Source: a phage. From it: DNA of 64,000 bases. Positions 6,857 to 60,390 of this stretch are shown one piece after another. Made by a program: the position numbers and the translations under genes. A model generated the notes under the pieces. That model made no database searches, was not told where the DNA came from, and saw only the letters and a program-made list of their open reading frames with translations. The stretch lies in the sequence record PZ445498.1; one strand, written 5' to 3'. The stretch's first letter is position 1, and each line of letters opens with the position of its first letter.

Positions 6857-6866
6857 GAAATTTTAC

Positions 6867-6895: not shown

Positions 6896-6919
6896 ATCTC
6901 TATATTAAGGAGATATACT

Positions 6920-7438: not shown

Positions 7439-7441
7439 TTA

Positions 7442-8587: not shown

Positions 8588-9117
8588 TGATAGCAGCAAT
8601 CTATGCAACTGGGCCGAATGGGGAGTTCGGCCTCAATGGTAAACTCCCTTGGGGTTCTTTCAAAGAAGAACTAAATACTTTCTATGCTACTTTGGATTCT
8701 CTAGCACCTGATAATATTATTGTAGGAGCAGGAACTTGGTTAGCCTTCCCTGAGACTCTGCAAAAAAGAATACTAGGAGATTCTGACCTATTTATTTATG
8801 CAAATAGACCACTACCTAACTCTGTAGGATCAGCTACACGCATAAGCAACATTGGATACCGTCTGCCTGATTTTCTCAAGGAAGAGGTAACTGTAGTATT
8901 AGGGGGAGCAACTCTGCTTCTTGAAATGTATGTCAAAAATCATCTAGATATGGCGTATATCTCTACTATTACTTCAGCCACACCATTATCTGCTGATGTA
9001 CATCTGCATCATCATATTACTTTAACTAATTCAATGGCAACTAGAATGGACTATGTGGCAGGACAGAATGCAGATAAAACGCTTTCATTCTTACAAGAAT
9101 TGGTGATATTTAAATGA
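8587..9117 (+). CDS. frd: dihydrofolate reductase
   Basis: [23 protein letters not shown]-terminal DHFR signature; translationally coupled to nrdB and thyA. Confidence 0.85.
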
Positions 9118-9968
9118 AGCAATATATTGAAACTGGAAAACGTATTCTTGAAGAGGGTGTATGGGTAACGAATCCTAGAACAGGGGTTCGTTGCCTAACC
9201 ATTATTGATGCAGACTTTACCTTTAACGTAGGAGCAGGAGAACTGCCGCTAGTAACTACTCGTAAAGCATTTGCTAAACAAGCAATAATGGAAATGATCG
9301 GATATCTCCGTGGGTACGACTCAGCAGCACAATTCCGCGCTATTGGTGTTAATACATGGAATGCTAATGCAAATGAAAATATTGCCTGGCTAGGTAATCC
9401 ATTCCGTAAAGGCGAGGATGATATGGGACGAGTTTATGGTGTTCAAGGACGTCATTGGACTAATTCTGATGGTATGGTATTTGATCAGTTAGCCAAAGTC
9501 TATCATAATTTGAAAAGAGGGATTGACGATCGTGGAGAAATTTTAACTTTTTGGAACCCTGGGGAATTTCGTAAAGGATGCCTACGTCCATGTATGCATA
9601 CCCATCAATTCTCTATTTTAGGTGATACACTATACCTAAACTCTTTCCAGAGGTCTAATGATTTCTTGCTGGGCCAAGTATTTAATATGGTGCAATGCTA
9701 TGCACTTCTAGCTATTATGGCACAGATTACAGGTCTTAAGCCAGGTATTGCTCGTCAAAAGATTATTAATCTTCATATCTATGAAGATCAGTATAATGTT
9801 CTGATGGAGCACAAGCAATTCGATCGTGAACCTTTTGCACCTCCTACTTTAGAAATCAATCCAAATATTAGAACTTTGGATGATGTATTAACGTGGGTAA
9901 GTAAGGATGATTTTACTGTTCGTGGCTATGAACACCATCCTGCTATTGCATATCCATTTACGGTGTAA
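9114..9968 (+). CDS. thyA: thymidylate synthase
   Basis: 284 aa; ...[42 protein letters not shown]... thymidylate synthase active-site region. Confidence 0.9.
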
Positions 9969-9971
9969 CAT

Positions 9972-10325
9972 ATGTTAATTATACTATTATTTGTCATATT
10001 CTTTCTAAAACATTTTATGGCCGATTATCCACTCCAAACACCATATATGCTAAGAAAGACGCATAAAATAGGGTGGAAACTTCCATTATTAACCCATTCG
10101 CTAGTACATGCTGGATTAACATTTGCAATTCTAATCCTATTCACATCACCAGGAATGTCTATAGCTTTAGCTATTATGGAATTAATTCTACACTTTATTA
10201 TAGATTATTGGAAAGCACAACGCTGTAAATACGCTATAAGCGATGCTAAGTTTTGGATAGCTTTAGGATTTGATCAGTTACTACATTATCTGACATACGC
10301 CCTAATAATCTTGATTATAATCTAA
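9972..10325 (+). CDS. hypothetical membrane protein
   Basis: 117 aa, several hydrophobic helices. Confidence 0.5.
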   Translation: MLIILLFVIFFLKHFMADYPLQTPYMLRKTHKIGWKLPLLTHSLVHAGLTFAILILFTSPGMSIALAIMELILHFIIDYWKAQRCKYAISDAKFWIALGFDQLLHYLTYALIILIII

Positions 10326-10330
10326 TTCAA

Positions 10331-10352
10331 ATAGCCCTTCGGGGCTATTATA
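10331..10352 (+). terminator. hairpin terminator
   Basis: agccc-ttcg-gggct followed by AT-rich tract. Confidence 0.5.
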
Positions 10353-10363
10353 TTTAAATTTCA

Positions 10364-10392
10364 TTTGCTTACTGAGTGAAATTCAAATATAA
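10364..10392 (+). promoter_or_regulatory. early promoter (ttgctt-17-tataat)
   Basis: Follows hairpin 10331-10352. Confidence 0.6.
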
Positions 10393-10423
10393 TATACTTC
10401 TAATTTGACAGAAGGATTTAATA

Positions 10424-11002
10424 ATGACAGCCATAGTAGCATTTAAATATAAAGATAAAGTATACTTAGCTGGTGATCGTATGGGTTCTAATGGCTATAC
10501 GAAACTGCTGGTTAAAAATCCGAAAGTATTCAAAATCTCTGATGATTTGTACTTCGGATACACTAGTTCCTTCTACATGGGACAATTACTAGAGCATAGC
10601 TTTACTGTACCACCACGTTTAGCAGATATTTCTGATGATAAATATTTATACACGGAAATAGTACCTAAATTACGTGATATGTTTAACCAGAAAGATTTTG
10701 GCGAAAAGAAAAATGAAAAATATGCTGAACCTAATCTGGGACAATTTATTATGCTCTACAAAGGAAGAATCTTTATTTTCCAATCTAATGCTTCTATTCT
10801 AGAAGTTGAATATGCCGGTGTAGGCTGTGGAGGAGAAGATGTACTTTCCAGTATTCGTACAGGTTTAGCTATTGCGGATTGTCGAGCCACAGATTTAGAT
10901 GTAGATGATATATTTGAAATCATTGATCTGGCTTTTACGCATTGTGCAGATTATATGTGTGGTGTATCTTCTCAACATGATGTTTTAGTAATTGGAGAAT
11001 AA
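10424..11002 (+). CDS. HslV/proteasome-like Ntn-hydrolase (putative)
   Basis: Begins MTAIVAFKYKDKVYLAGDRMGS, i.e. Thr at position 2 followed by a beta-strand and GD motif as in HslV; assignment by motif only. Confidence 0.4.
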   Translation: MTAIVAFKYKDKVYLAGDRMGSNGYTKLLVKNPKVFKISDDLYFGYTSSFYMGQLLEHSFTVPPRLADISDDKYLYTEIVPKLRDMFNQKDFGEKKNEKYAEPNLGQFIMLYKGRIFIFQSNASILEVEYAGVGCGGEDVLSSIRTGLAIADCRATDLDVDDIFEIIDLAFTHCADYMCGVSSQHDVLVIGE

Positions 11003-48092: not shown

Positions 48093-48325
48093 TGGAAATT
48101 GTAGCAAGCGTCTTAGTAGTTATGTTATTCATAGTAATACTCGTATCTTTCGTTATTATGCGTAGAGCCAGAGAATTAGCAGAGGATCTAACAAAGTTAC
48201 GTGGAGAGGTGGCTACTCTTAAATTACAACGTGAATCTCTCAAGCTATTCGTGGCCCAAGGTAGCCTAGAACATACAGCAGAAGACTTCATAGTATATCT
48301 TAAACGTTACATGGGAATCAAATAA
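48092..48325 (+). CDS. hypothetical membrane protein
   Basis: 77 aa, N-terminal TM helix. Confidence 0.5.
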   Translation: MEIVASVLVVMLFIVILVSFVIMRRARELAEDLTKLRGEVATLKLQRESLKLFVAQGSLEHTAEDFIVYLKRYMGIK

Positions 48326-48510
48326 TGGAAACATTACTTCTTGTACTACTAGGCGGCTCACTCTTAACTATTCTAGGCTTGATAATTGTATGTAGTCGCC
48401 TCAATGTTAAGAATCTAGAATTAGATAGTGAGAATCAGATTCTTAACCGAGAAATTAAACAACATAATATCGCAGCTCGTAAGCTGTTAGATAAACTGGA
48501 GAATAGATAA
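48325..48510 (+). CDS. hypothetical membrane protein
   Basis: 61 aa, N-terminal TM helix. Confidence 0.5.
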   Translation: METLLLVLLGGSLLTILGLIIVCSRLNVKNLELDSENQILNREIKQHNIAARKLLDKLENR

Positions 48511-49121
48511 TGTTTACACAACAAACCATTAAAGTAGTTGCAGATCATGAACTCGACACATGGGATTATAGCTTTAAAGATCTGACTGCTACAGTACAGT
48601 TTAAATCTATGCAACTGTCGTTTTTGCACATTGATCTTCAGGCTTGCAAAGAGTTTCAGGCTAAGCTCATGAATGCTCGTAAGATCTTTGGCACAGCTCG
48701 CATCCCGGCTGATAATCTGATTAATGCACTAATCGATGCAGGATACAAACTCGTGAAGACTGAGGTGAATCGCCCTAGTACTCCAGTGACTATTCGAGAT
48801 CCGTGGCAGTCTGGACCAATCACGATGTTAAATAATTCTGATAAAAGATTAATGTCGGATATGCACAATGTTCCTTGTGGTGGCGTGGTAAGCAATACGC
48901 AATCATATAAGTTTGGGGAGGATTGCAGTCCTTCTGTACAATTGAAACATACTCAAGAAGCTCTTGAATCTGATATGCGAAGCGTAGCACCAGCGGATGC
49001 TGGAGTTTCTAGGAACTCATACACCATTCATCTGAGTACACCATCTAGTAGAAATGAGAGCTTTGCTGATGCAGTTATGGAAGCTCTTGTTGATCTGACT
49101 AATAGTAAGGGTTTTAATTAA
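48510..49121 (+). CDS. hypothetical protein
   Basis: 203 aa. Confidence 0.55.
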   Translation: MFTQQTIKVVADHELDTWDYSFKDLTATVQFKSMQLSFLHIDLQACKEFQAKLMNARKIFGTARIPADNLINALIDAGYKLVKTEVNRPSTPVTIRDPWQSGPITMLNNSDKRLMSDMHNVPCGGVVSNTQSYKFGEDCSPSVQLKHTQEALESDMRSVAPADAGVSRNSYTIHLSTPSSRNESFADAVMEALVDLTNSKGFN

Positions 49122-49471
49122 TGGAACTAGTTACTGAATTTACTATAGGCCACTGCAAGGTGGCTTTTCTCAATGAAAAGTCTTTTAATAACGAAGAAAC
49201 TATTGGGATCTTTGAAATTAAGGAGGATGAATATGAACGTGTGGAAAGGCTAGCGTATTTATTCTTTGCTGATGGTCATTTAATGAATGATCTCAAAGAG
49301 CTAGTATTTAGGTTGCCAAAAGATATACCTTTCACAGCTAGAAACATGTCTCATATTGTTGCTCAACTAAATCTAATATGGATTAAATTAGATCCCGCTA
49401 TAGATAGAGTCATAACATTAAAAGAAAGACCAGTTAAAAAATTTACAGGTGATCAAGCCTGTGATATCTAG
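49121..49471 (+). CDS. hypothetical protein
   Basis: 116 aa. Confidence 0.5.
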   Translation: MELVTEFTIGHCKVAFLNEKSFNNEETIGIFEIKEDEYERVERLAYLFFADGHLMNDLKELVFRLPKDIPFTARNMSHIVAQLNLIWIKLDPAIDRVITLKERPVKKFTGDQACDI

Positions 49472-49548
49472 TAATAAAAGCACGAGCCTCTACGGAGGCT
49501 CTAAAATAAAAAGAAGGTCACAATGACCTTAAAAACGAGAGATAAATA

Positions 49549-50430
49549 ATGTATAACTTTAAAGATAAACTAAGACAAAATGCTGGCAAAGGAAAAGCTA
49601 AGGAAACAAATAATATTCCTAATGCTAAAATATTACCTTTCCCTGAACTAACCCAAGAAGAAAAAGATAAACTAGCATTTATGTTCGATGCACTTCTAGG
49701 ACTGAATGGACGTTTATACTCTACGCTCTCGTTAAATGAGAAGCGTTTAGTAGAGTTCTTCGGAAAACGTTATCAAGTTACATCTAAGGGTAACGCTCTT
49801 AAAGAAGGAGAAAAACCTTACACAGTTATTAAGATTAGTGCATATGCACATCGTTTCTTAATTCGTGCGCTAGAGACAGAATACTTCACATTACCATCAT
49901 TTAGTGCATTCCACATCTTCGAAGATGAACGAATGAATATTGATGATTTATATGGAGATCGTTATCAATATTCAGGAAGTCCTTTCCATGATGCACTGAG
50001 AAGCTACCCAAATTGTTATCTTCCAATTAGAGCATCACAAGGCAAGGCAAGTGTCTTTGCAGTGTACTCAGGATCTAAAGCATCGGATCTAGAAACTTAT
50101 ATTTATAAAGAACGTAGATCTGCTATTCCAGAAGAAGCACGTTATGAAAATCCAATTCTACCAACTAAAGAAGTCAAGGAAACCAAAACTTCTACTACTC
50201 AAACAGAATCTCCTTATCTGAAGTTTGAGAAACAAGTTGGATGGGTTCTAGAAATGGGTATAGCTTCACCGCTTGCTGCAGCATTTATCAATAGGTATCT
50301 AGAAATTCCTGACGAGTTCCACACACGTTATAACACGAATATTCAGATCACAGATGAATTAATAGCTATTGCAAAAGATACACCTACTAACACTGAGGCG
50401 TATCAAAAAGCATACCAAGAGTTACTATAA
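49549..50430 (+). CDS. hypothetical protein
   Basis: 293 aa; last gene before the repeat region. Confidence 0.55.
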   Translation: MYNFKDKLRQNAGKGKAKETNNIPNAKILPFPELTQEEKDKLAFMFDALLGLNGRLYSTLSLNEKRLVEFFGKRYQVTSKGNALKEGEKPYTVIKISAYAHRFLIRALETEYFTLPSFSAFHIFEDERMNIDDLYGDRYQYSGSPFHDALRSYPNCYLPIRASQGKASVFAVYSGSKASDLETYIYKERRSAIPEEARYENPILPTKEVKETKTSTTQTESPYLKFEKQVGWVLEMGIASPLAAAFINRYLEIPDEFHTRYNTNIQITDELIAIAKDTPTNTEAYQKAYQELL

Positions 50431-50882
50431 GATCCTGCAAGTCTCGGTGCACAATACCTGTACCGAGACTCAAATACAAACTCTCGTTGACAGATAACTA
50501 AATGTATGTTATCATAACTCTATGAGTTAATAGAATTAACCATTTAGAGTTGCCACACAGAAGGTGTGGTGGTTCAGGAATCTTAAATTACTGACTTGTA
50601 GCGTAGGTTACGGAGCGACAGGACAAGTCAACAGGTAATTTAATAAAGATTACTAGAAACATCACGAGACCTTCTGGCGGGGGCAAAGCTCTATATGAGA
50701 ACCCTGGGGGATCTTATACTTATATAAAAACTGATACTGTTGAATAGATAAATTAACGTTCAAGATGATACACCGGTTGCCGCTCATCTGCTAGGATGGC
50801 ACAACACTTTCTAGTAGACTCCTAAGTTTCTAGGAAAACTCACGCATTCTAGGGCAGTTTCTCTCCAACGTTACATATCCTA

Positions 50883-50941
50883 GGGCGGTTTCCTATACAG
50901 GGCGGTTATAGGGAGGGCGGTTATAGGGAGGGCGGTTATTT
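50883..50941. repeat. short tandem repeat (gggcggttataggga units)
   Basis: Four gggcggtt cores within 60 bp. Confidence 0.8.
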
Positions 50942-50982
50942 CTAGAAGACATTTTTCCAAAACACATTTCTGGAAATTGCTA

Positions 50983-51582
50983 TCGGATTTGCACATTATG
51001 TTTCTAGAAATTTATGGTCGGATTTGCACATTGATAGGAGTCTCCAAAGTTTTTAGGAACACTGAAAATAGCAGCATTATTTCGGGCCGAAGGCCCATAT
51101 TTGCCTGAGTTTTTAGAGCCACAGGAATTTTCACTTGTCAAGCTGTTTTGCCCCCTTTTGCTAATAAAATTTCGTATAATCTCCCCGAATCTCACTTCTA
51201 GCCAAAACATCCCACATTATCCCCAAAAACGCAGCAAACCGGTGCTAAAGCACCATCACCGCTGCTCCTCCCGTAGTTCCTCCCAAAATCTCATCGGATT
51301 CGCACTTCTCCCCAAACCCACACAATCACACACCCTCCCATCAAAGTCACAAAAATCTTGTCGGATTTGCACATCTCAACACATGTCGGATTTGCACATA
51401 CTCTAGTAAATCCAGCTGGATTGCATTGCAGTTGCGGATTGCTGGAGTTTTTAGGAAAATTCATTGTCGGATTCGCACACTATAAAAATATTTCCCATCG
51501 GATTTGCACACTACCAAAAATTGTCGGATTCGCACATACACGCCCACACGTAACACCCGTGGAGCAATGTCGGATTTGCACA
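50983..51582. repeat. dispersed direct 13-mer TCGGATT(T/C)GCACA, 9 copies
   Basis: Copies at about 50983, 51018, 51294, 51361, 51386, 51467, 51498, 51524 and 51570, all on the plus strand; degenerate copies near 51413 and 51433. Confidence 0.8.
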
Positions 51583-51617
51583 AAAGCGCAGGGCAAAATG
51601 AAAATGCCCTGCCTGCC

Positions 51618-51775
51618 GAAATGCGAATGATAATGAGATTGATTCTCATTTGAAAAGTTGAATGCGAATGATAATGATTCGCGTTTAGAAAGTGGAATGA
51701 GAATGGTTATCATTTACAGAATTGAATGCGAATGAGTTGCATAATGATAATGATTCGCATTTAGAAAGGGAAGTG
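51618..51775. repeat. AT-rich repeats and palindromes built on AATGCGAATGATAATGA
   Basis: Three direct copies of gaatgcgaatga plus inverted partners (aatgcgaat ... attcgcatt). Confidence 0.75.
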
Positions 51776-51794
51776 AGAAACACTGCTATTTAAG

Positions 51795-51803
51795 TTATCC
51801 ACA
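51795..51803. promoter_or_regulatory. DnaA-box consensus TTATCCACA
   Basis: Exact 9-mer match. Confidence 0.45.
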
Positions 51804-51884
51804 GGTTTATTAACAGCACGATTTGACTTGACAAAATCCTAGCGATTTTGAGGCGTTATCAACAGACTTATTAACAGGTTATTC

Positions 51885-51904
51885 TACTGTATAAATATAC
51901 AGTA
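51885..51904. promoter_or_regulatory. LexA (SOS) box-like palindrome TACTGTATAAATATACAGTA
   Basis: Fits TACTG-N10-CAGTA exactly. Confidence 0.5.
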
Positions 51905-52274
51905 TATTCCAGCAGGAGAATAATCTAATATAGCCTTTAAACGCTCTGTAACGCAGTCTAACGCGTTTATTTTTGGAGGAGGTATTTTAATAAGGGGAAG
52001 TTTGAGGAAGACCAGAAAAAGCGGGGCCGGTAGTTGCGCCCCGTTATTATTAGCGGTAGATGTATTGTTGCCAGTAGCGGCGGATATTGTCGCCACCGTC
52101 GGGATCATTAGCAGACCTAATATTACCTATAAAAATATATAGTTTCATAACGCCATCGCTCCTAGAATGAGAATGATTATTATTAACATTGTGAAGCCAT
52201 TACCAAATCGTAAACGCTGGGAATGTTTCCCAGCGGTATTATTAGATTTATGGCTTTGTGTTTTTCGCCACCAG

Positions 52275-52623
52275 CTATTCATAAGCTGATTTCCGAAACG
52301 TTGTTTCAATACTATCCGCAGTGGATTGAATATACGCGCCTTTCATAATCAGGCGCTCTGTACACACTTTGCGGAAAATGTCAATAAATTCATTTTCATT
52401 TTCCGCTATTAACGCTTCCCCCATAACCTGAACGTCACAAGACCCAAAAGTTAAAAATTGAAACGCTAGTTCACGGGCGACAACGGCAGAAATTTTATAA
52501 TGTGCTTTGCCCTCATAGATATTAACCACGCCTTTATAAACTGGTGAAAGCTGATTTAAATAGTTTGCTAATAATGCCGGACGGCAATTAGTTACAAATC
52601 GGTTGCCCTCGTAAATTACCATT
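52275..52623 (-). CDS. hypothetical pre-early protein
   Basis: Start reassigned to the internal ATG (MVIYEGN) coupled to the upstream stop (TAAAATG). Confidence 0.45.
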
Positions 52624-52836
52624 TTATAACACTCCCCGAAACGCAGCGTAAAAGGTGGCAAAGTGTTTAACCGTTTCGGATACCAAATTGCCGCGCTTGT
52701 CAAATTTCTTTTCTGTAACACGAAAGGCGTTTTTATTGCGTGGTACATATTCAATTTTACAGTCTAGACGCTCGAACGTGTTAACATCCACCAGCTTAAA
52801 ACCTTTGGAACGGGCAAGGGAAACATTCTTTAACAT
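52624..52836 (-). CDS. hypothetical pre-early protein
   Basis: 70 aa, aaagggga RBS. Confidence 0.45.
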   Translation of the reverse strand: MLKNVSLARSKGFKLVDVNTFERLDCKIEYVPRNKNAFRVTEKKFDKRGNLVSETVKHFATFYAAFRGVL

Positions 52837-52838
52837 TT

Positions 52839-52988
52839 TTATTCCCCTTTACCAGTCATACAGCCTAACAAGTAAGAAAAACCCGCGATACCTGCTCCAA
52901 TAATAACCACGTGAACGCCGAAAGCTATTGCAAACAGTGATAAAATAGCGCCCAAGATACCTGCTAGAACTGATCGAAAAATAACCAT
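52839..52988 (-). CDS. small hydrophobic peptide (49 aa, below the ORF-track cutoff)
   Basis: aggag RBS; MVIFRSVLAGILGAILSLFAIAFGVHVVIIGAGIAGFSYLLGCMTGKGE. Confidence 0.35.
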   Translation of the reverse strand: MVIFRSVLAGILGAILSLFAIAFGVHVVIIGAGIAGFSYLLGCMTGKGE

Positions 52989-53036
52989 TTTATTAGCTCC
53001 TAGAAATTAGGGGCGAAAGTAACGCCCCGTTATTAA

Positions 53037-53264
53037 TTACATTAAAACAATTTTTGCCGCTTGCTTTTTGGTGCAGTGGTTAGCTTTCAATTCATCCAGC
53101 AAAAATCCGGCTGTTTGCTGATCAATCTTGTCATTGTCGTAAAGCCCCTGAATGGTAACATAAGTTTTACCAATCCCAAATTCAGAAACCATAACGCTGA
53201 CAATAGCGGGAACGGATACCCATTCCATACCGTTAAAAATTGCAGAAGATGATGAATATACCAT
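53037..53264 (-). CDS. hypothetical pre-early protein
   Basis: 75-aa ORF downstream of the 333-aa gene on the same strand. Confidence 0.4.
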   Translation of the reverse strand: MVYSSSSAIFNGMEWVSVPAIVSVMVSEFGIGKTYVTIQGLYDNDKIDQQTAGFLLDELKANHCTKKQAAKIVLM

Positions 53265-53384
53265 TTTAACGCCTCCTAGAAATCAGGGAAAAATTTTCAA
53301 TCCACCGTTTCGGTGTAAAGGCATTATAACAAAAAAGGCCGCCATAATAGGCGACCTTTACAAAACTTTACATTAGACTAATTA

Positions 53385-54386
53385 TTATTCGCTTTCAGCG
53401 TTTTGGGTAAAGGTGGAAATGTCAATACCTTTTACCATTTCGTCGATCATTTCAGCGATGTTAAAAGATTGTACCATTTCTAGCATTGCCGCTTCCATTG
53501 CCGCGCCTGCTACCGCTTTTGCTTTCGCGTTATTCGGGGCGTACTGGTCAACTGCTACACTCAGCAGGTTAGCAATAACTACCCGACCGATAGGCGTATC
53601 AATATAACCCTTGATAATAAACGGCGCTTTTTTCGCCGCTACTTTTGTGATTTGAGTCAGTGCAATTTTACCTGCTTCCAGTTTAGCAGCGTTTACAACG
53701 GCGGATTTATTAGCGGCAACGATAGAAGATACTTTAGACATAATATTTCCTTTATTTTCAGTAGTTTGCGCATTTGCGCTTGAAGTTTGAGATTGTACAG
53801 CCTGTTTTGTTACAATGTCAAGCGGTAAAAGTGTAAATCCAGCATTTGCAACGTTTGATTCATTCCCATACTCTAAATAATCGTTAGGAATCAACATGTT
53901 ACCGCTAGCGCGTTCAAAACACAATACGCCAGTTGTTTCGATTGCGTCACTATCCGCACCTTTATAACTGGATGATAATTCACGCCAGATACTATTTAAT
54001 AACGATCCGACACTATCCAGCCGGATATTATTTACTTTTGTTGCTGTTACCTGCTCCTTTTCTTGCACGTTATATAATCGCGCAATGTAACCACTATGAG
54101 ACTCATTATAGCCAACAATGATAAAATCAATATCAGTTCCACGACTATTACGGAAAATATGATAATCACGGTTGAAAATTACTAGCGCCCTTGTCTGGTC
54201 TAGTAATAGCGTGAAATCATCGACTGAATAATGAGTATCATTATTATCTAAAATATCCTCGTGAATCTTTTCGATAATAGTAGCCGTATGTTGTAGGCTT
54301 GCCGCGCTACTACCATCTAGCAGGTTGCGCAAACTACCTTTTAAAATAGTGGCGTTTGCTGGTACTGCAATTCTTACAGTAGACAT
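53385..54386 (-). CDS. hypothetical pre-early protein (333 aa), function unknown
   Basis: Largest leftward ORF of the higher-GC block; no motif I recognise. Confidence 0.6.
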   Translation of the reverse strand: MSTVRIAVPANATILKGSLRNLLDGSSAASLQHTATIIEKIHEDILDNNDTHYSVDDFTLLLDQTRALVIFNRDYHIFRNSRGTDIDFIIVGYNESHSGYIARLYNVQEKEQVTATKVNNIRLDSVGSLLNSIWRELSSSYKGADSDAIETTGVLCFERASGNMLIPNDYLEYGNESNVANAGFTLLPLDIVTKQAVQSQTSSANAQTTENKGNIMSKVSSIVAANKSAVVNAAKLEAGKIALTQITKVAAKKAPFIIKGYIDTPIGRVVIANLLSVAVDQYAPNNAKAKAVAGAAMEAAMLEMVQSFNIAEMIDEMVKGIDISTFTQNAESE

Positions 54387-54644
54387 TTCTTTACCTCCCT
54401 CGTTAATCGGTGAGTGAATGATATAGATATTTGTTCATTAGGGGCAAGAAAAAAGAAAAGGTTTTTTATTCCTTGCCTACTGCCTGTTTTTATGATATCC
54501 GCGCGTTTTCTATTTCTAGCACTCTGTAAGTGTACACAAGGCTTTATTATAATAAGGGCAGCAGTGAGAAAACGCCGTGTAGCGCGTTCTAGGCCGCTTA
54601 AATTTGATTGCGGTTGTTACTGCTACCATTCTACCCTGTATATT

Positions 54645-54664
54645 TATACAGTAGGATAACCTGT
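54645..54664. promoter_or_regulatory. LexA box-like palindrome CTGT-N8-ACAG
   Basis: cctgtatatttatacagtag in the divergent intergenic region. Confidence 0.45.
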
Positions 54665-54673
54665 ATATAAGTC

Positions 54674-54682
54674 TGTGGATAA
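54674..54682. promoter_or_regulatory. DnaA box (TGTGGATAA, reverse complement of TTATCCACA)
   Basis: Exact 9-mer; 8/9 matches also at 54723-54731 and 55008-55016. Confidence 0.45.
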
Positions 54683-55494
54683 GTCGCCAAAACGTCGCCT
54701 ATTGCGTCAAGTTATTTTGTGCTGTGGATAGCTTTGTGCATAACCTAAATGATAGTGGTTCTCACTTAGCCCGATAGTTTCTCATAGTTATTATTTCTCA
54801 TTAATTTATGTGTATATTATATATTATGAAATAGTTAGTTGGCTAATAGATTTTTAGAGTATTAATAGTCTGCTAACTGTTTCGGCTGTTACAATCCACC
54901 AGCGTGATTATCATCCTAGCGATTATTAGTCTGCTAATGCTCTGATGCACGTCCAGACTTATTTGTCAATGAAAAATAACAGCAGAAAATACTTTTTTGA
55001 AAAATCAAGTGGATAACTCATTAAATTTCATTTTTGCTTTTTGTATAAGTTATTAACAGGGTCTAAAACGCTCTGTAACGCATTCTAAGCGCCTCAAAGG
55101 AAAAGATAGGCAATCATAAGGGGTACACCGAGAAAACCTCACCACGAGGATTTTAGATTTTGTCAAGTACCCTAGAGCAGATATAAATGAAAAAATTACT
55201 TGCTAAAATGGTTGTTTTGGTGTTATTCGCGCGCCCGTTTCATTAAATTTAATGCGCCGCTGGACGTTTGCGAGTAGTGGTTTTCTTTACGTTTCTTTAC
55301 AAAAATACGCTTGCGCCCTTCTCGGTATTCTCCTATTATTTATCACGTAGGGCGGCAATGACGAACTACACGGCGGGGATAACAGCGATTGACAGTCTGT
55401 TTGACCTTTCAAAACCCTGCCATGCTCTTTAAAAATTAGGGAACATCTTAAAGCCTATCGGCGGTAAACTTAGATATTATAAGGAATCGACGAT

Positions 55495-55704
55495 ATGAAA
55501 CAAACGCTTTTGATCACTGGCAAGCCTATCAAGTCGCTTGATAGCAGAACAAAAAATTTGTTGACAGTAGCGCAACGATCTGTAAAATACAGATTCAAGC
55601 AATACAAGAAAGGCAAGCAACAAGGGCTGGAAATGGTGTGGCGTAATATAATGATTGATTTATATAACTCCCATCAAATCGAAAAAAGTTTAAAAAACGA
55701 TTGA
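55495..55704 (+). CDS. hypothetical pre-early protein
   Basis: 69 aa, basic. Confidence 0.45.
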   Translation: MKQTLLITGKPIKSLDSRTKNLLTVAQRSVKYRFKQYKKGKQQGLEMVWRNIMIDLYNSHQIEKSLKND

Positions 55705-55870
55705 CACGCTAGCCGATAGGTTTTAAGATGTTCCCCGTAGTAACTGCTCTTTAACAATTTGGAAAAACGGTAATGTTTAGGCTAACTCCTAGCGGATTAT
55801 AATCTAATAGCGTTTCAAAGTATCGAGGCGCTATTGTGGAATAATCCCCCAATAAACCGGAGTATTAAAA

Positions 55871-56122
55871 ATGCAAAACGTTATCACCGCACCGAAAGTA
55901 GGTCAATCCGTTTTTATTCCTTTCGTTACTAAAACGGATGAATTAACTGGAAAAGCTGAACGTATTAAAGGTGCGGCGCTTGATCCCTTTGATAAAATTG
56001 AAGCGGTCTATGCGGAAACGGAACGCAGTAATCACGGCAAGCCGATTTATAACGTCCGTGTTAAATCTGGCGACGTTGTAAAGATCATTCAGAAGGATGA
56101 TAAATGGCAAGCCATAGCATAA
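55871..56122 (+). CDS. hypothetical pre-early protein
   Basis: 83 aa, ggagta RBS. Confidence 0.5.
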   Translation: MQNVITAPKVGQSVFIPFVTKTDELTGKAERIKGAALDPFDKIEAVYAETERSNHGKPIYNVRVKSGDVVKIIQKDDKWQAIA

Positions 56123-56222
56123 ATTAGTGTTACTTTTATATTCCCCTGAAATATGGGGAATATATGGATTAACATTAGTTAATCATAATCCCTTAATTAA
56201 TAATTGAATGGAGTATTAAATT

Positions 56223-56639
56223 ATGTCTAACGTTAAAACCGAAAAAACCGCAAAATTTTCTTGGAACGAAGAAAACACCGAAAAGGCTGTTTCTATGTAT
56301 TCTGAAATGGTCGCTAAAAGCGGAATTGAATTTGCTAACACTGACGGCTTAAAAGAAATCGCCGCCGCCGTTGGCGCGGCGTCCCCTGTCTCTGTACGTT
56401 CTAAACTGACCAGCGCAAAAGCATACCAGAAAAGCGACAAGCCGCGCAAAGTTGGCGGCGGTAGCTCAATCCGTAAAGCTCACTATGTGCGCGTTATCGC
56501 TAAACACGCCATTGATTCAGGCATTATCAAAGACGCCGATGATCTGGCAAGTTTGGAAAGTGCAAAACTGGAAACGCTGGAAGCCGTGGCGCAATTGTTA
56601 GGCGTTGCCGATGAAGTAAAACAGGCCGCAGGCGAATAA
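56223..56639 (+). CDS. hypothetical pre-early protein (about 15 kDa; possible A2-like)
   Basis: 138 aa; host-like codon usage; size and position next to the A1-like gene are the only basis for the A2 suggestion. Confidence 0.5.
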   Translation: MSNVKTEKTAKFSWNEENTEKAVSMYSEMVAKSGIEFANTDGLKEIAAAVGAASPVSVRSKLTSAKAYQKSDKPRKVGGGSSIRKAHYVRVIAKHAIDSGIIKDADDLASLESAKLETLEAVAQLLGVADEVKQAAGE

Positions 56640-56672
56640 ATTTAATCAGCGGGGAATATTCCCCGCTATAAT
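56640..56672 (+). terminator. hairpin after the pre-early 138-aa gene
   Basis: cagcgggg-aatatt-ccccgctat. Confidence 0.45.
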
Positions 56673-56678
56673 TTCCCT

Positions 56679-56894
56679 TTGACCGGAGTTATTAAAATGA
56701 TCTTCTTTCCTAGTGAATCCCTCATTCTAGGCTTGTTTATTATGGCGGCCTCATTATTATTCGCTTATTTTCAAAATGATTTAGATTCATATTATTTTAA
56801 GCGTAAATCTAAATTCGCAAAGAGTTTAGGTCTTATTTGTTTTATTGCCGCCGTTGCTCTTGGTGTAAGTTCTAGCCTAATGCCGATTAGTTAA
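56679..56894 (+). CDS. small membrane protein
   Basis: 71 aa, two TM helices. Confidence 0.45.
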   Translation: MTGVIKMIFFPSESLILGLFIMAASLLFAYFQNDLDSYYFKRKSKFAKSLGLICFIAAVALGVSSSLMPIS

Positions 56895-56991
56895 ATGTTG
56901 CAAATTATAACGCTGTAAATAAACGGCGTTATATTTGGCAATATTGCCAGCTTTAAAATGTTTTAAATCCCTTTAATGGAGTTAAATTAAT

Positions 56992-58656
56992 ATGAATATT
57001 TCCGCAGAAAAACAGTCTCAGATCACTAAACTTGCCGCTGATTTTAATTTCTACGGTAAGCGTTTACGCGCTACCAAACTTGAAGTTTGCGACGATATTT
57101 CAAAAGCTGTTTATGTTACGCCGAAACATTCAACGTCAATTTGTGACTGGCTGGAAGCAAATAAACCAGCGAAACCGAAAGCGGCAAAAGCCGAAAAGGC
57201 GATTAAAAACGATGATCGCCCAGAGGCGGCGGGAATTGTTTCTAGCACCGTTGAGCAATGGGAAGTTAAATCCGGTAAACGCTTTATTATTACCTCGATT
57301 CAGAATAATACTTTCCCGCATAAAAACTTTTTAGCAAGTCTGGAAAAATTCGCTGAATATATCGGCGCTGAATTGCTAATCAGTAAATTCATTTATAATA
57401 AAAATGGATTCCAGAATGGGGAAGGCGGCGAAAAAATCAAATATGATCCCGCATTTGACAAATATATTTGCGAGAAAAACGTATTTTTAAATAACCGCCG
57501 CTTTGCTTTCATGGCTGAAATTAACGTTTTGCCAACGGCTGATTATCCGCTTTCAGGATTCGCAGAAACCGCCACCGCTTTAAATATCGAAGGTCTGGCA
57601 ATTGGTCACGCAAAAATTACCGCTGAAAGTGTGCCAGCGTTAAAAGGTGAAGTAGTACGCCGTATGTACTCCACCGGAACGGCTACACTTAAAAACTATA
57701 TTCAGCAGAAAGCAGGTCAAAAAGCTGAGGCGCTGCATAATTTCGGCGCTTTGCTGGTAGAATTTGACGACGACGGCGAATTTTTTGTTCGCCAGCTTGA
57801 AACAATGGACGAAAGCGGAATGTTCTATGATTTGAATGTTTGCGCTATACCAACCGGATGTTTCAAAACATCTGATCATGTTTTAGGCTTGCAATATGGC
57901 GATATTCACGCCGAAAAATTAGATGATGATTGTGCCGTTGCGTCATGGGTGGGCGAAAATAGCTTGCTTGATATTCTTAAACCAAAATATCAGTTTATCC
58001 ATGATGTGCATGATTTTACATCGCGCAATCATCATAATCGCGCCTCTGGTGTATTCCTAGCTAAACAGTATGCCGCCGGACGTGACAAAGTTATTGACGA
58101 TCTCATTGATACCGGTCGCGTGTTGGAGTCAATGGAGCGCGATTTTTCTCAAACAATCATCGTGGAATCCAATCATGATCTAGCGTTATCCCGTTGGCTT
58201 GATGATCGTAATGCTAACATTAAAGACGATCCAGCCAACGCGGAACTATATCACAGCCTAAACGCTGCGATTTATGCGGCTATTGCAAAACAAGATGATA
58301 CCTTTAACGTATTGGATTATGCGCTTAGAAACGTTGCAGGTTGCGAATTTAACGCTATTTTCCTGACTACTGACCAATCGTTTAAAATTGCAGGAATTGA
58401 ATGCGGTGTGCATGGTCACAACGGCATTAACGGCAGTCGGGGCAATCCTAAACAGTTTAAGAAGTTGGGACGCCTCAACACTGGCCATACTCACACGGCG
58501 AGCATTTATGGCGGCGTGTATACCGCTGGCGTTGCTGGTAGTCTCGATATGGGTTACAACGTTGGCGCTAGTAGCTGGACGCAAACGCATTTAATTACCT
58601 ATGCAAACGGGCAACGTACTTTGATTGATTTCAAAAACGGTAAATTCTTTGCATAA
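56992..58656 (+). CDS. A1: A1-like pre-early protein with C-terminal metallophosphoesterase (Mre11/SbcD-like) domain
   Basis: 554 aa; GDIHAE, ESNHD, GVHGHNG and GHTH motifs in the C-terminal half; size matches my recollection of T5 A1. Confidence 0.65.
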   Translation: MNISAEKQSQITKLAADFNFYGKRLRATKLEVCDDISKAVYVTPKHSTSICDWLEANKPAKPKAAKAEKAIKNDDRPEAAGIVSSTVEQWEVKSGKRFIITSIQNNTFPHKNFLASLEKFAEYIGAELLISKFIYNKNGFQNGEGGEKIKYDPAFDKYICEKNVFLNNRRFAFMAEINVLPTADYPLSGFAETATALNIEGLAIGHAKITAESVPALKGEVVRRMYSTGTATLKNYIQQKAGQKAEALHNFGALLVEFDDDGEFFVRQLETMDESGMFYDLNVCAIPTGCFKTSDHVLGLQYGDIHAEKLDDDCAVASWVGENSLLDILKPKYQFIHDVHDFTSRNHHNRASGVFLAKQYAAGRDKVIDDLIDTGRVLESMERDFSQTIIVESNHDLALSRWLDDRNANIKDDPANAELYHSLNAAIYAAIAKQDDTFNVLDYALRNVAGCEFNAIFLTTDQSFKIAGIECGVHGHNGINGSRGNPKQFKKLGRLNTGHTHTASIYGGVYTAGVAGSLDMGYNVGASSWTQTHLITYANGQRTLIDFKNGKFFA

Positions 58657-58708
58657 TTAAATTTAATCGGCGGTTGAAATATGCCGCCATTAATAAAAGG
58701 ATAATTAA

Positions 58709-58987
58709 ATGACGATTAAAATTAATCTTCCATCTAGTAAAAATATGTCTGATACATATGCCATTGATAATATCGGGCATGGCACTGTATACCGTAATAT
58801 AAAAGATGGTGACTGTTATATTTATCAAAATCCGATAAATGGTCATTCTTATATAATTGAATCAGGGGATTTTTATTCCTTTGAAACTGATTATGAGGCG
58901 AGGGATTATTTGCAGGAACAAGATATTCCCGATGTGTGGAAAGAAACAAATTTAAACTTTGTTGTAAGTTTAGAAGTCAATAAATAA
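58709..58987 (+). CDS. hypothetical pre-early protein
   Basis: 92 aa. Confidence 0.5.
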   Translation: MTIKINLPSSKNMSDTYAIDNIGHGTVYRNIKDGDCYIYQNPINGHSYIIESGDFYSFETDYEARDYLQEQDIPDVWKETNLNFVVSLEVNK

Positions 58988-59023
58988 ATTAATCCCGTAA
59001 TTAAATAATCTGGAGTCATAAAC

Positions 59024-59416
59024 ATGAAAAACCAAAACATTCCTTTTGATCGCGCTACTTCTTCCATCGTTCTAGTTTACTCTAATGGCGAACGTTATCA
59101 CGTCGAAGCGGGGCAAGTTAATTTTGATTTGCTGAATTATAACGCCGCTTTGCAGGTTACTACCTTTGCTTATGATACCGGCAAAGTGGCAAGCCATACG
59201 AAAGCAAAAGGCGTTTACGCTGATACTTTGACAGTGCAAACAATTATTATTGACGCTGTAAAATCAGGTCTAGCGTTTGCAGTTGTCGCGCCATGCCCCG
59301 CTTGCCTTGATAATGCTCTTATGTCTGCAAAGGTCTACACTTGCGCGGGGATTCGTTCCAGCGTATCAGGTGAGGATATTAGTTTTATCGCTGATGCGTT
59401 GGCGTATGGTCTTTAA
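59024..59416 (+). CDS. hypothetical pre-early protein
   Basis: 130 aa, followed by a hairpin at 59437-59462. Confidence 0.5.
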   Translation: MKNQNIPFDRATSSIVLVYSNGERYHVEAGQVNFDLLNYNAALQVTTFAYDTGKVASHTKAKGVYADTLTVQTIIIDAVKSGLAFAVVAPCPACLDNALMSAKVYTCAGIRSSVSGEDISFIADALAYGL

Positions 59417-59436
59417 TAGTTAATTTATTATTACCC

Positions 59437-59462
59437 GCTTATAAATAGCGGGTAATGCTGAA
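59437..59462 (+). terminator. hairpin in the pre-early region
   Basis: acccgcta-taaa-tagcgggt. Confidence 0.45.
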
Positions 59463-59492
59463 TTAACTACCCTTAAATGGAGAATGTAACAA

Positions 59493-60197
59493 ATGAATCA
59501 AGTCAACATGAATATTACCCGCGCTTTCCCGCATATTTCCCGCGTTATGATTTGGGATTTAGACGGAACGATTATAAATTCTTTCCATCGTGTAGCGCCT
59601 TGTTTTGATGGCAACGGTAATTTAGATTTAGCTAAATATTCCCGTGAAGCCTGCAAACATGATTTAATTATGCAGGATTCTTTATTGCCGTTGGTTGAAT
59701 ATATGCGCCAATGTATGAATGATGCAAATACTTTAAATATTATTTGTACCGCGCGCCTTATGTCTAAAAGCGCTTACTTTTATTTGCGTAAACAAGGCTT
59801 GCGAGGGCGCGGAAATAGCAATATCCGCGTATTCTCCCGCGATACATTACACAAATACTTTGAAGCGGATAAGGTTAGCGAAATATATCATAGTAAAGAC
59901 GCTGTATACAAAAGCTATTACTTTGAACTATTTAAACAGCTATATCCGAACGCTGATTTTACGATGATTGATGATCATAAAGGCGTATTATCGGCGGCGG
60001 CAAGTGCTGGATTCAAAACACTGGACGCCCAAGCCGTTAACGATATCCTATCAATCGGCGTAGCATTGATCGGTGAAACCTTTATTGATGAATCGTTAGA
60101 TGATGATAACGATTATCAATTCCTAGCCGAACGTTTAAAAATGTGTTGGGAAGGTATGACCGAGGAAGAACGCGCGGAATATAGTACCACACCGTAA
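59493..60197 (+). CDS. dmp: HAD-family 5'-deoxyribonucleotidase (dmp-like)
   Basis: HAD motif I VMIWDLDGTIINS; position in the pre-early block as for T5 dmp. Confidence 0.6.
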   Translation: MNQVNMNITRAFPHISRVMIWDLDGTIINSFHRVAPCFDGNGNLDLAKYSREACKHDLIMQDSLLPLVEYMRQCMNDANTLNIICTARLMSKSAYFYLRKQGLRGRGNSNIRVFSRDTLHKYFEADKVSEIYHSKDAVYKSYYFELFKQLYPNADFTMIDDHKGVLSAAASAGFKTLDAQAVNDILSIGVALIGETFIDESLDDDNDYQFLAERLKMCWEGMTEEERAEYSTTP

Positions 60198-60390
60198 CAA
60201 TTCATTGATAAATTAAAAGTTGCCTAACAATTAAAAATAAAATAGTCACACTGTGTAATGATAACATGGTGTGACTATTAGCTTGCTAAGTACCGGGGCG
60301 GTAATGAGACTCATTCTCATCTAGGGAACCTCTGGGCCCACCTTCATGTGTAATCTTATGAGATTTCGAGAATTGGTAATTAGCGCTAAC

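What the first reader, a model, noticed from the sequence alone, without database searches (positions are those of the whole stretch)
50880..51780. Repeat-rich non-coding segment between the early genes and the pre-early block (injection-stop-like)
Three distinct repeat families sit in about 900 bp with no ORF: a short tandem array of gggcggttataggga (50883-50941); nine same-strand copies of the 13-mer TCGGATT(T/C)GCACA at irregular 25-280 bp spacing (50983-51582); and AT-rich direct and inverted repeats built on aatgcgaatgataatga (51618-51775). Same-strand iterated 13-mers look like an array of binding sites for a DNA-binding protein. T5 is known to pause DNA injection at a repeat- and palindrome-rich site at the inner edge of its first-step-transfer region, and this location fits that.
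Basis: partly seen in the sequence, partly recalled or inferred. Interest (0 to 1): 0.6.

Follow-up and report, generated by a model that had tools for sequence, protein, structure and literature searches.

The report
Known T5 injection-stop repeat region
This repeat-packed, gene-free stretch is this phage's copy of the well-described 'injection stop signal' region of phage T5, so the finding is real but already known; the new detail is that the physical genome end falls inside the 13-mer array and that nearby repeats look like binding sites for the host proteins Fur, LexA and DnaA.

Summary
All three repeat families are present at the stated coordinates and far exceed chance (13-mer: 8 exact plus 1 one-mismatch copy, all same strand; 0.11 expected in 64 kb).

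The window is a T5-like phage in reverse orientation. [quoted passage not shown] The families correspond to the published DRA, nine DRD and DRC/DRE repeats, so this is already known.

Refinements from this work:
- The segment straddles the terminal-repeat boundary (window 51115|51116). Two 13-mers and the GGGCGGTTAT array lie outside the repeat; seven 13-mers lie within 470 bp of the genome end. The same holds from T5 to a Vibrio phage.
- The array ends 3 nt before the counterpart of T5's 7.9% nick (51585|51586), so it lies beyond the first-step-transfer end.
- That inverted repeat carries a 19/20 LexA-box match. The AT-rich repeats are significantly Fur-box-like. I found neither reported.

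My inference (about 0.4) is that the 13-mers mark the repeat boundary for end formation or packaging, rather than being the stop itself.

The parts
50487..50515 (+). Sigma-70-type promoter with extended -10 (TTGACA-17-TATCAT, TG before the -10), pointing into the repeat segment.
   Evidence: Scores 11/12 in the scan. Conserved in T5, phiR201, Klebsiella Roth37 and Pantoea AAS21.
50883..50941 (+). GGGCGGTTAT(AGGGA) tandem array (T5 'DRA' copies), lying in unique DNA outside the terminal repeat.
   Evidence: Conserved as GGGAGGGCGGTTATTT in relatives. A degenerate copy GGGCGGTAAT lies at 60296, near the other repeat end.
50983..51030 (+). Two 13-mer copies (50983-50995 and 51018-51030) outside the terminal repeat.
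51084..51096 (.). Conserved GGGCCGAAGGCCC hairpin, 20-30 nt outside the terminus.
51108..51125 (.). Terminal-repeat boundary, equivalent to the right physical genome end: AGTTTTTA|GAGCCACAGG, cut equivalent 51115|51116. It lies within one member of the AGTTTYTAG family (50825, 51048, 51108, 51446).
   Evidence: Six genome records including T5 end here. Depositor-annotated repeat_region boundaries of phiR201 (exact) and vB_SenS-3 (4 nt off) agree.
51150..51400 (+). C-rich, G-poor tract just inside the terminus. Composition is conserved although sequence is not.
   Evidence: GC skew -0.49 to -0.67. T5 and Gary show similar composition.
51294..51582 (+). Seven 13-mer copies inside the terminal repeat: 51294 (one mismatch), 51361, 51386, 51467, 51498, 51524, 51570. 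Together with the two outer copies these are the T5 'DRD' x9.
51549..51593 (+). Counterpart of the T5 major nick site (7.9% / 99.5%): CGTAAC ... AAA|GCGCAGGG, predicted nick 51585|51586, 3 nt after the last 13-mer.
   Evidence: T5 annotation. Extended consensus shared by three T5 nick sites. GCGCAGG lies 3 nt after the last 13-mer in 32 of 35 loci.
51589..51611 (.). Palindrome CAGGGCAAAATGAAAATGCCCTG.
51619..51782 (.). AT-rich direct and inverted repeats (T5 'DRC/DRE' with palindromes). Fur-box-like 19-mers at 51629, 51664, 51699 and 51740, with a further copy at 52169.
51772..51902 (.). Paired DnaA-type boxes at 51795/51807 and 51856/51868, each pair 3 bp apart.
   Evidence: Davison 2020.
51885..51904 (.). 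TACTGTATAAATATACAGTA, a 19/20 match to the LexA (SOS) box consensus. A second copy lies in the partner arm at 54634.
   Evidence: A CTGT-N8-ACAG site is present in 31 of 35 loci and in Proteus, Vibrio and Aeromonas relatives.
52016..52048 (.). Terminator-like hairpin (AAAAA-GCGGGGC...GCCCCG-TTATTATT) ending the right-hand pre-early operon.
   Evidence: T5 annotates a terminator at the homologous 9275-9296.

Best explanation
Shown: the segment is this phage's orthologue of phage T5 'Repeat Region 3', the conserved non-coding junction between the ~9.2-kb terminal repeat (window 51116-60338) and the unique early region, which contains the T5 injection stop signal. It is a mosaic of separate cis elements, not one element.

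Order of elements, left to right:
1. A conserved early promoter reading into the region.
2. The GGGCGGTTAT repeats and two 13-mers in unique DNA.
3. The terminal-repeat boundary, which is the right genome end.
4. A C-rich tract.
5. Seven more 13-mers.
6. The major nick site.
7. Fur-box-like AT-rich palindromes.
9. The pre-early genes.

Inferred mechanism:
- The sequences to the right of the nick (about 51620-51905) are the last DNA inside the cell when transfer pauses. They most plausibly form the stop, as a platform for host DNA-binding proteins: DnaA as already proposed in the literature, plus possibly LexA and Fur. I put this at about 0.35.
- The asymmetric, same-strand 13-mers lie beyond the pause point and bracket the genome end in every lineage examined. 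I infer they are sites for a phage-encoded protein that marks this repeat boundary for terminase cutting or packaging initiation, in the manner of cosB or pacL/pacR. I put this at about 0.4.

The confidence value given below applies to the identity and the composite cis-acting nature of the region, not to these mechanistic steps.
For: Identity:
- Alignment to T5 9330-10530, with the flanking T5.018/019/020 homologues in the same order.
- T5 RefSeq iss feature and left terminal repeat.
- Published element order and the count of nine DRD copies.

Conservation:
- 36 fetched T5-like loci (one of them a 13-kb stretch of the T5 RefSeq record) plus the window carry 3-11 copies at up to one mismatch, with none on the opposite strand (full arrays have 8-10 copies, and totals include stray one-mismatch copies outside the array).
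- The array is retained in Klebsiella Roth37 and Pantoea AAS21 and, in degenerate form, in Vibrio phage Gary.

Boundary lies inside the array (copies outside + inside the terminal repeat):
- Window 2+7; T5 3+6; vB_SenS-3 2+7.
- phiR201 1+5 in the array, plus one stray copy about 1.9 kb further out that the tally counts as 'outside'.
- 122,024-bp contig 3+4.
- Gary 3+5.

Other points:
- 13-mers are absent at the other repeat boundary.
- The array ends 3 nt before GCGCAGG in 32 of 35 loci, and T5's nick is annotated there.
- Paired 13-mers occur in no bacterial genome except one mis-binned phage fragment.
- LexA-type box at 19/20, conserved family-wide.
- Fur resemblance is significant against shuffles and scrambled motifs, and the family consensus equals the Fur core.
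Against: - No binding, packaging or injection experiment exists for any of these repeats. The literature assigns the DRD copies no function, and as of 2026 the stop mechanism is still called poorly understood.
- In all T5-like phages the terminal-repeat end and the first-step-transfer end lie about 0.5 kb apart, so position alone cannot separate a packaging role from an injection role.
- Distance from the terminus to the nearest 13-mer is not fixed: 7 nt in Gary against 85 and 178 nt here.
- Proteus phage Stubb has no clear 13-mer, and Aeromonas phage AhSzw-1 has a different iterated unit.
- 'Right end packaged first' is inferred from the last-in-first-out rule, not shown for T5.
- According to Davison, complete ejection occurs in vitro into FhuA proteoliposomes, which argues against a virion-intrinsic block.
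- The LexA-like and Fur-like sites do not overlap a strong promoter, so their usual role as operators does not apply.
Confidence: 0.85

Rival explanations
1. The 13-mer array is itself part of the injection stop or restart machinery. It would be a row of sites for the pre-early DNA-binding protein A2 (with A1), or for a host protein. That protein would either hold the DNA at the envelope, or ratchet it in when second-step transfer resumes, because the 13-mers are the first DNA to enter after the pause.
For: - The array begins 3 nt beyond the nick and first-step-transfer end.
- A2 is annotated as a DNA-binding protein required for transfer.
- In the left repeat context all nine copies are contiguous.
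- The region is annotated as iss in T5.
Against: - This reading gives no reason why the genome end should fall inside the array in every lineage.
- It does not explain why a truncated array is kept at the extreme right end of the genome.
- At the pause the array is outside the cell, where cytoplasmic proteins cannot reach it.
- A2 has no recognisable domain and no known sequence specificity.
Confidence: 0.25
2. The region is an iteron-type replication origin. Same-strand iterons, an AT-rich block and DnaA boxes would work as in P1 oriR or pSC101, with the 13-mers bound by the phage 'replication origin binding' helicase T5.108.
For: - The layout of iterons, AT-rich repeats and paired DnaA boxes is present.
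- T5 encodes a protein annotated as replication origin binding, which matches Pfam Herpes_ori_bp.
Against: - The Pfam match covers only helicase positions 46-197 of 820, not a DNA-binding domain.
- No initiator gene is adjacent.
- Davison cites electron-microscopy mapping of T5 origins near the genome centre.
- The DnaA-box arm is duplicated 2.9 kb away as an inverted repeat, which is unlike known origins.
Confidence: 0.1
3. The repeats act at the RNA level. The conserved promoter at 50487 would transcribe the same-strand 13-mers and the C-rich tract, giving a non-coding or antisense RNA. That RNA would either be terminated by Rho on the C-rich tract or counter-transcribe the pre-early operon.
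For: - The promoter is conserved in five genera-level relatives.
- All 13-mers share the transcript's strand.
- A C-rich, G-poor tract follows.
- A structured RNA-like hairpin lies directly downstream of the promoter.
Against: - No transcript data were found for this region.
- No Rfam family matches.
- A strict one-strand orientation is equally typical of DNA-level iterated sites.
- The copy of the array at the right genome end has no upstream promoter.
Confidence: 0.1
4. The segment encodes small proteins; many GenBank records annotate 'hypothetical proteins' here.
For: - Mechanical ORFs of 57-101 aa exist.
- Several deposited relatives list hypothetical proteins under the match.
Against: - No PHROG family matches.
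- The curated T5 RefSeq record has no CDS here.
- Frame-breaking indels separate the window from T5.
- The sequence is dominated by repeats conserved at the DNA level.
Confidence: 0.02

Closest known systems
Phage T5 injection stop signal region / 'Repeat Region 3' (Heusterspreute et al. 1987 and Wang et al. 2005, as cited by Davison 2020, bioRxiv 10.1101/866236; feature in NC_005859)
   Same: Homologous sequence with the same genomic position, between the last right-hand pre-early gene and the T5.018 homologue. Same order of elements and the same count of nine DRD copies. Same paired DnaA boxes and the same inverted-repeat partner near the divergent pre-early promoters. Same nick-site module.
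   Different: Minor turnover only. T5 has a 13-mer at about window 50860 that this phage lacks, and this phage has one at 51294 that T5 lacks. This phage has three exact GGGCGGTTAT units where T5 has two. Indels occur in the AT-rich block, and the C-rich tract has diverged in sequence.
Terminase recognition sites flanking a cleavage site: lambda cosQ-cosN-cosB with R elements, SPP1 pacL-pacC-pacR, and short-repeat arrays in the T7 terminal repeat (recalled from general knowledge, not tested here)
   Same: Iterated short sites in one orientation lie on both sides of the point where the mature genome end is made, with most copies on the side that would be packaged.
   Different: No terminase binding or cleavage data exist for T5-like phages. 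Distance from site to cut is not fixed between lineages. The terminal repeat here is about 9 kb rather than cohesive ends or a 160-bp repeat.
Iteron-plus-DnaA-box replication origins (P1 oriR, pSC101, F; general knowledge)
   Same: Same-strand iterated sites of about 13-23 nt, an adjacent AT-rich block, and consensus DnaA boxes.
   Different: No adjacent initiator gene. The DnaA boxes sit in a long inverted repeat. Published origin mapping places T5 origins elsewhere.
Host operator motifs: LexA/SOS box TACTG(TA)5CAGTA and Fur box GATAATGATAATCATTATC (general knowledge)
   Same: A 19/20 match to the LexA consensus. Fur matches of 14-16 out of 19, with a family consensus GAATGATAATCATTC equal to the Fur core.
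   Different: The sites do not overlap a recognisable strong promoter, so repressor action is not the evident role. Binding is untested. I found no report of these sites in the held literature.

Membership tests
T5-type injection-stop region (Repeat Region 3) | Non-coding region at the inner end of the long terminal repeat, between the pre-early genes and the first early gene. | tested here: met
   dmp, A1 and A2 homologues lie at 55.8-60.2 kb and the T5.018 homologue at 49549-50430. The repeat boundary is at 51115|51116.
T5-type injection-stop region (Repeat Region 3) | Sequence homology to T5 9194-10409 with the same order of DRA, DRD x9, DRC/DRE and IRD'-spacer-IRC'. | tested here: met
   Alignment and BLAST; published element list. 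The assignment of repeat names rests on order and count, because the paper's figure is not held.
T5-type injection-stop region (Repeat Region 3) | Paired DnaA or DnaA* boxes 3 bp apart in an inverted repeat, with a partner copy near the divergent pre-early promoters. | tested here: met
   Boxes at 51795/51807 and 51856/51868, each pair 3 bp apart. Partner arm at 54636-54767.
T5-type injection-stop region (Repeat Region 3) | Acts in cis to halt DNA transfer after about 8% of the genome. | not testable with these tools
   Needs blender or time-resolved entry experiments. According to Davison this has been verified in only two phages.
Terminase recognition (pac/cos-type) site | Lies at the position where the mature genome end is generated. 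| tested here: met
   Six records end at the 51115|51116 equivalent and two annotated repeat boundaries agree. The Gary boundary also lies inside its array. The ends are those of relatives, not of this phage itself.
Terminase recognition (pac/cos-type) site | Bound by the small terminase subunit and required in cis for cleavage or packaging. | not testable with these tools
   No data were found in the held literature.
Iteron-type replication origin | Iterated same-strand sites next to an AT-rich region and DnaA boxes. | tested here: met
Iteron-type replication origin | A cognate initiator encoded nearby, or one shown to bind the iterons. | tested here: not met
   The adjacent ORFs have no Pfam domain. 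T5.108 lies about 49 kb away in T5, and only its helicase part matches Herpes_ori_bp.
LexA (SOS) operator | CTGT-N8-ACAG palindrome close to TACTG(TA)5CAGTA. | tested here: met
   19/20 at 51885-51904 and 17/20 at 54634. These are the only two CTGT-N8-ACAG sites in 64 kb.
LexA (SOS) operator | Overlaps a promoter that it represses, and binds LexA. | tested here: inconclusive
   Only weak promoter-like matches (9/12) lie nearby. Binding cannot be tested here.
Fur box | Match to the 19-bp consensus, or to the 7-1-7 form TGATAATnATTATCA, beyond what base composition would give. | tested here: met
   Four sites with 4-5 mismatches at 51629-51758 and one with 3 at 52169. P about 0.01 in the window and 0.001 in T5 against shuffles; 0 of 300 scrambled consensus motifs reach the observed count. 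Perfect 7-1-7 boxes occur in relatives. The copies are related by duplication, so the counts are not independent.
DnaA box (as a reading of the 13-mer itself) | 9-mer TT(A/T)TNCACA with no further conserved flank required. | tested here: not met
   ATTTGCACA is an 8/9 match, but the TCGG prefix is invariant. About a quarter of copies have C at box position 4. Only the rare TCGGTTTTGCACA variants fit the consensus.

The most novel reading that the evidence does not exclude
The end of the first-step-transfer DNA may be a dedicated landing pad for three abundant host DNA-binding proteins. These are DnaA (already proposed in the literature), LexA (a near-consensus SOS box in each arm of the large inverted repeat, conserved from Escherichia phages to Proteus, Vibrio and Aeromonas phages) and Fur (3-8 Fur-type palindromes). 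Assembled at the cytoplasmic mouth of the injection channel, they would cause or time the T5 injection pause. Separately, the nine 13-mers would form the recognition array for making the right genome end. On this reading the classical 'iss region' is two functions lying side by side.
Probability: 0.25. Interest if true: 0.7.

Novelty: already known. Interest (0 to 1): 0.3.

Why it matters
How T5 stops and restarts DNA injection has been open since 1968 and was still called poorly understood in 2026. The finding itself rediscovers the described iss repeat region, so it adds no new kind of element.

What could matter is the finer anatomy found here:
- The physical genome end sits inside the 13-mer array.
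- The array ends at the nick site.
- The DNA that is actually inside the cell at the pause carries LexA-type and Fur-type boxes next to the DnaA boxes.

These points split the region into parts that can be mutated separately. They also name specific host mutants (lexA, fur, dnaA) and phage proteins (A2, small terminase) to test.

Tried and rejected
1. Known RNA families and tRNAs in 50300-52400: only sub-threshold chance hits and no tRNA.
2. Coding reading of the ORFs in the segment: no PHROG family.
3. The 13-mer as a plain DnaA box: rejected because the TCGG prefix is invariant and a T/C variation falls at a key box position.
4. The 13-mer as part of nick-site recognition: rejected because the other two annotated T5 major nicks share CGTAAT...A|GCGCAGGG but have no 13-mer.
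5. The 13-mer as a site like the herpesvirus UL9 box (GTTCGCAC, recalled from memory), via T5.108: the Pfam match covers only helicase motifs, so this has no support.
6. 13-mers at the other repeat boundary: none within 1 kb, even allowing 3 mismatches, in the window or in T5.
7. Host chromosomal arrays of the 13-mer: none in 185,579 species genomes; the single hit is a mis-binned phage fragment.
8. The terminus as a diverged nick-type site: only a weak resemblance (AGTTTCTAGGAGA|GCGCAGGG against AGTTTTTA|GAGCCACAGG) and no upstream CGTAAT, so not pursued.
9. Literature searches for LexA or Fur sites in T5, for a T5 packaging signal, and for transcript maps of this region: nothing relevant in the held library. 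Davison's 2015 review, which documents the repeats, is not held.
10. A LexA-cleavage timer for restarting transfer: considered and set aside, because from my own recollection (untested here) T5 plates on recA cloning strains.
11. A CsrA-type GGA-loop reading of the 13-mer RNA: judged poor by eye (UCGGA rather than ANGGA) and not computed.
Full report
**What is there.** The 13-mer TCGGATTYGCACA has eight exact copies and one one-mismatch copy between 50983 and 51582. All are on the + strand, against 0.11 matches expected in the whole 64-kb window. Tandem Repeats Finder reports AGGGCGGTTATAGGG at 50899-50939 with 100% matches, and a degenerate fourth unit lies at 50883. The AT-rich block at 51619-51782 holds several overlapping direct and inverted repeat families. 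Mechanical ORFs of up to 101 aa cross the segment, but none matches a phage protein family. No tRNA and no Rfam family is present.

**What it is.** The window is a T5-like phage: 452 phage records match, the best at 94-95% identity. It lies in reverse orientation relative to T5. The ORFs at 49549-50430, 48510-49121 and 48325-48510 match T5.018-T5.020 in size and order. Window 50430-51975 aligns to T5 10936-9338.

T5 RefSeq annotates the left terminal repeat as 1-10219. It annotates an 'injection stop signal (iss)' at 9140-10149 and a major nick at 9748/9749. Davison's comparison of 25 T5-like phages calls T5 9194-10409 'Repeat Region 3'. It lists palindromes, IRD'-spacer-IRC' with DnaA boxes, DRE, DRB, four DRC, nine DRD and two DRA copies, and notes that the region overruns the repeat by 270 bp. 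Read in window orientation, the order and the count fit:
- the nine 13-mers correspond to DRD;
- the AT-rich repeats correspond to DRC/DRE.

The finding is therefore real, correctly interpreted in outline, and already described.

**Conservation.** An exact 14-mer scan of IMG/VR found multi-copy arrays only on contigs of 96-123 kb, the size of T5-like genomes (shorter contigs carried single chance hits). 36 fetched T5-like loci (one of them a 13-kb stretch of the T5 RefSeq record) plus the window carry 3-11 copies at up to one mismatch (full arrays 8-10, totals including stray copies outside the array), with none on the opposite strand and with largely conserved spacing. Pooling 153 distinct copies shows that the motif is asymmetric and longer than 13 nt: AAA-N4-T(G/A)-TCGGATTYGCACA-T.

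| Relative | A1 identity to window | 13-mer array |
|---|---|---|
| Klebsiella phage Roth37 | 72% | 9 copies at up to two mismatches |
| Pantoea phage AAS21 | 65% | 8 copies in the array |
| Vibrio phage Gary | 32% | Degenerate form, TCGGATTTGCACC type |
| Proteus phage Stubb | 42% | No clear copy |
| Aeromonas phage AhSzw-1 | 35% | A different iterated unit in the same place, TCTAGCCGTCTAAACATCT x5 |

. Paired 13-mers occur in none of 185,579 bacterial and archaeal species genomes. The one hit is a phage fragment 95.5% identical to window 48512-51069, mis-binned into a MAG.

**Where the genome end is.** Six genome records, T5 among them, end at the same nucleotide, equivalent to window 51115|51116 (AGTTTTTA|GAGCCACAGG). 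Depositor-annotated repeat boundaries agree: phiR201 exactly and vB_SenS-3 within 4 nt. From the conserved unique flank at the far side, the window's repeat is 51116-60338, assembled as a single collapsed copy.

The GGGCGGTTAT array and two 13-mers lie in unique DNA, and seven 13-mers lie within 470 bp of the right genome end. Counts of copies outside and inside the repeat are:
- T5: 3 + 6
- vB_SenS-3: 2 + 7
- phiR201: 1 + 5 in the array, plus one stray copy about 1.9 kb further out
- the 122,024-bp contig: 3 + 4
- Vibrio phage Gary: 3 + 5

. The other repeat boundary has no 13-mer.

**Where the pause is.** T5's 7.9% nick maps to window 51585|51586, 3 nt after the last 13-mer. GCGCAGG follows the last 13-mer at that distance in 32 of 35 loci. 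The three annotated T5 major nicks share a longer consensus, CGTAAT about 37 nt upstream and A|GCGCAGGG at the nick. Only this nick has a 13-mer, so the 13-mer is not part of nick recognition.

Davison places the shear point of first-step DNA at about 9618 in Hangzhou coordinates, which is roughly window 51640. At the pause, the DNA inside the cell therefore ends in the AT-rich palindromes and the DnaA-box inverted repeat (51620-51905). The 13-mer array is still outside the cell. As a geometric aside from general knowledge, a tail of about 160-200 nm holds about 500-600 bp, roughly the length of the array.

**Host-factor-like sites.**
- *LexA.* The inverted-repeat arm at 51772-51902 pairs with 54636-54767. 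It carries paired DnaA-type boxes 3 bp apart, as published. At its outer end lies TACTGTATAAATATACAGTA, a 19/20 match to the LexA box consensus, and the partner arm holds a 17/20 copy. These are the only two CTGT-N8-ACAG sites in 64 kb. Such a palindrome lies 139-506 nt after the last 13-mer in 31 of 35 loci (266-445 nt in all but Gary and phiR201). It also sits beside TTATCCACA in the Proteus, Vibrio and Aeromonas relatives.
- *Fur.* The AT-rich repeats match the Fur 19-mer at 14-15 of 19 positions at four sites, and at 16 of 19 at 52169. This is not due to base composition: P is about 0.01 here and 0.001 in T5, and no scrambled consensus does as well. An unbiased palindrome search across relatives returns perfect TGATAATnATTATCA boxes and GAATGATAATCATTC, the Fur core.
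- *Prior reports.* Davison's paper mentions neither LexA nor Fur, and searches of the held library found no report. Older subscription papers could not be checked.
- *Status.* These are sequence matches. Binding is untested, and no strong promoter overlaps the sites.

**How it most likely works.** It is shown that the region is a conserved, non-coding, cis-acting mosaic at the repeat/unique junction. What follows is inferred.
- The stop itself most plausibly involves the DNA to the right of the nick, which is inside the cell at the pause and is dense in sites for host proteins. This extends the published DnaA proposal.
- The 13-mers are asymmetric and strictly co-oriented. They are phage-specific, absent from the other boundary, and bracket the genome end from Escherichia phages to a Vibrio phage. 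That is the layout expected of a recognition array for end formation or packaging initiation. By the last-in-first-out rule, the right end should be packaged first. I put this at about 0.4.
- The rivals are an injection stop or restart role through A2 (0.25), an iteron origin (0.1) and an RNA-level role (0.1).
- The origin idea loses weight because T5.108 matches the herpesvirus origin-binding family only in its helicase part, and because published mapping places T5 origins elsewhere.
- The RNA idea rests on a promoter at 50487-50515 that is conserved in five genera-level relatives and reads into the repeats, and on a C-rich, G-poor tract at 51150-51400.

**Verdict.** The refinements (the genome end inside the array, the adjacent nick, and the LexA-type and Fur-type boxes) are leads that would make the old question of T5's two-step injection more testable. 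They are not established findings.

Noticed in passing
window 50522-50690 (with the promoter at 50487-50515 and the conserved block at 50757-50812): Directly downstream of a conserved promoter, T5-like phages carry at least 8 mutually unalignable sequence variants. Each variant folds alone into the same shape: a short 5' hairpin plus one long hairpin of 110-135 nt (z = -2.1 to -6.5 against shuffles). The structure ends at a conserved GGGGGA box and, in Tequintavirus and Epseptimavirus, is followed by a nearly invariant ~55-nt block. It has no Rfam hit and is not annotated in T5 RefSeq. It is a candidate structured non-coding RNA, or a DNA cruciform, with hypervariable sequence.
   Followed up: partly
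window 52268, 52788, 54896 (minus strand); T5 8127, 8689; also loci L122, L123, L124, L125, L126, L128: Every Chi site (GCTGGTGG) inside the terminal repeats of the window, T5 and six relatives, including Proteus, Vibrio and Aeromonas phages, has the same orientation: 16 against 0, where about 0.15 per strand per repeat is expected. This is the orientation read by RecBCD entering from the iss-side (right) genome end, not from the first-injected left end. It could promote RecA-mediated recombination between the two repeats.
   Followed up: partly
window 51549-51593; T5 9748, 22336, 39746; L124 4362: The annotated T5 major nick sites share a longer bipartite consensus than the annotated Pu|GCGC: CGTAAT about 37 nt upstream, plus A|GCGCAGGG at the nick. 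In Proteus phage Stubb the PhageTerm-predicted repeat boundary falls exactly at such a site (cacatag|GCGCAGGG). That 'boundary' may therefore be a nick signal rather than a true end, or ends and nicks may be related in that genus.
   Followed up: partly
window 60296-60320: About 20-40 nt inside the other (dmp-side) end of the terminal repeat lie a degenerate GGGCGGTAAT and an AATGAGACTCATTCTCAT palindrome of the same family as the AT-rich repeats. Both of these families therefore occur near both repeat ends, whereas the 13-mer does not.
   Followed up: no
window 48855-48867 and the equivalent positions in many T5-like loci (for example T5 about 12165): A lone extra 13-mer copy on the same strand (TCGGATATGCACA here, exact in several relatives) is conserved about 1.8-2.1 kb outside the array, inside the T5.019-homologue coding sequence.
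   Followed up: no
window 60099-60117 (dmp coding region); T5 247; L122 14857-14881: A strong Fur-type box lies inside the 3' part of the dmp gene. It is a perfect TGATAATGATTATCA in T5 and has one mismatch to the 19-mer consensus in Klebsiella phage Roth37. It may simply reflect D-N-D codons.
   Followed up: no
L132 (SABI01000336.1, a 'Spirochaetia bacterium' MAG): A 2.6-kb contig in a public MAG is 95.5% identical to window 48512-51069. It is a T5-like phage fragment binned into a bacterial genome. The contig breaks about 46 bp short of the terminal-repeat boundary.
   Followed up: yes
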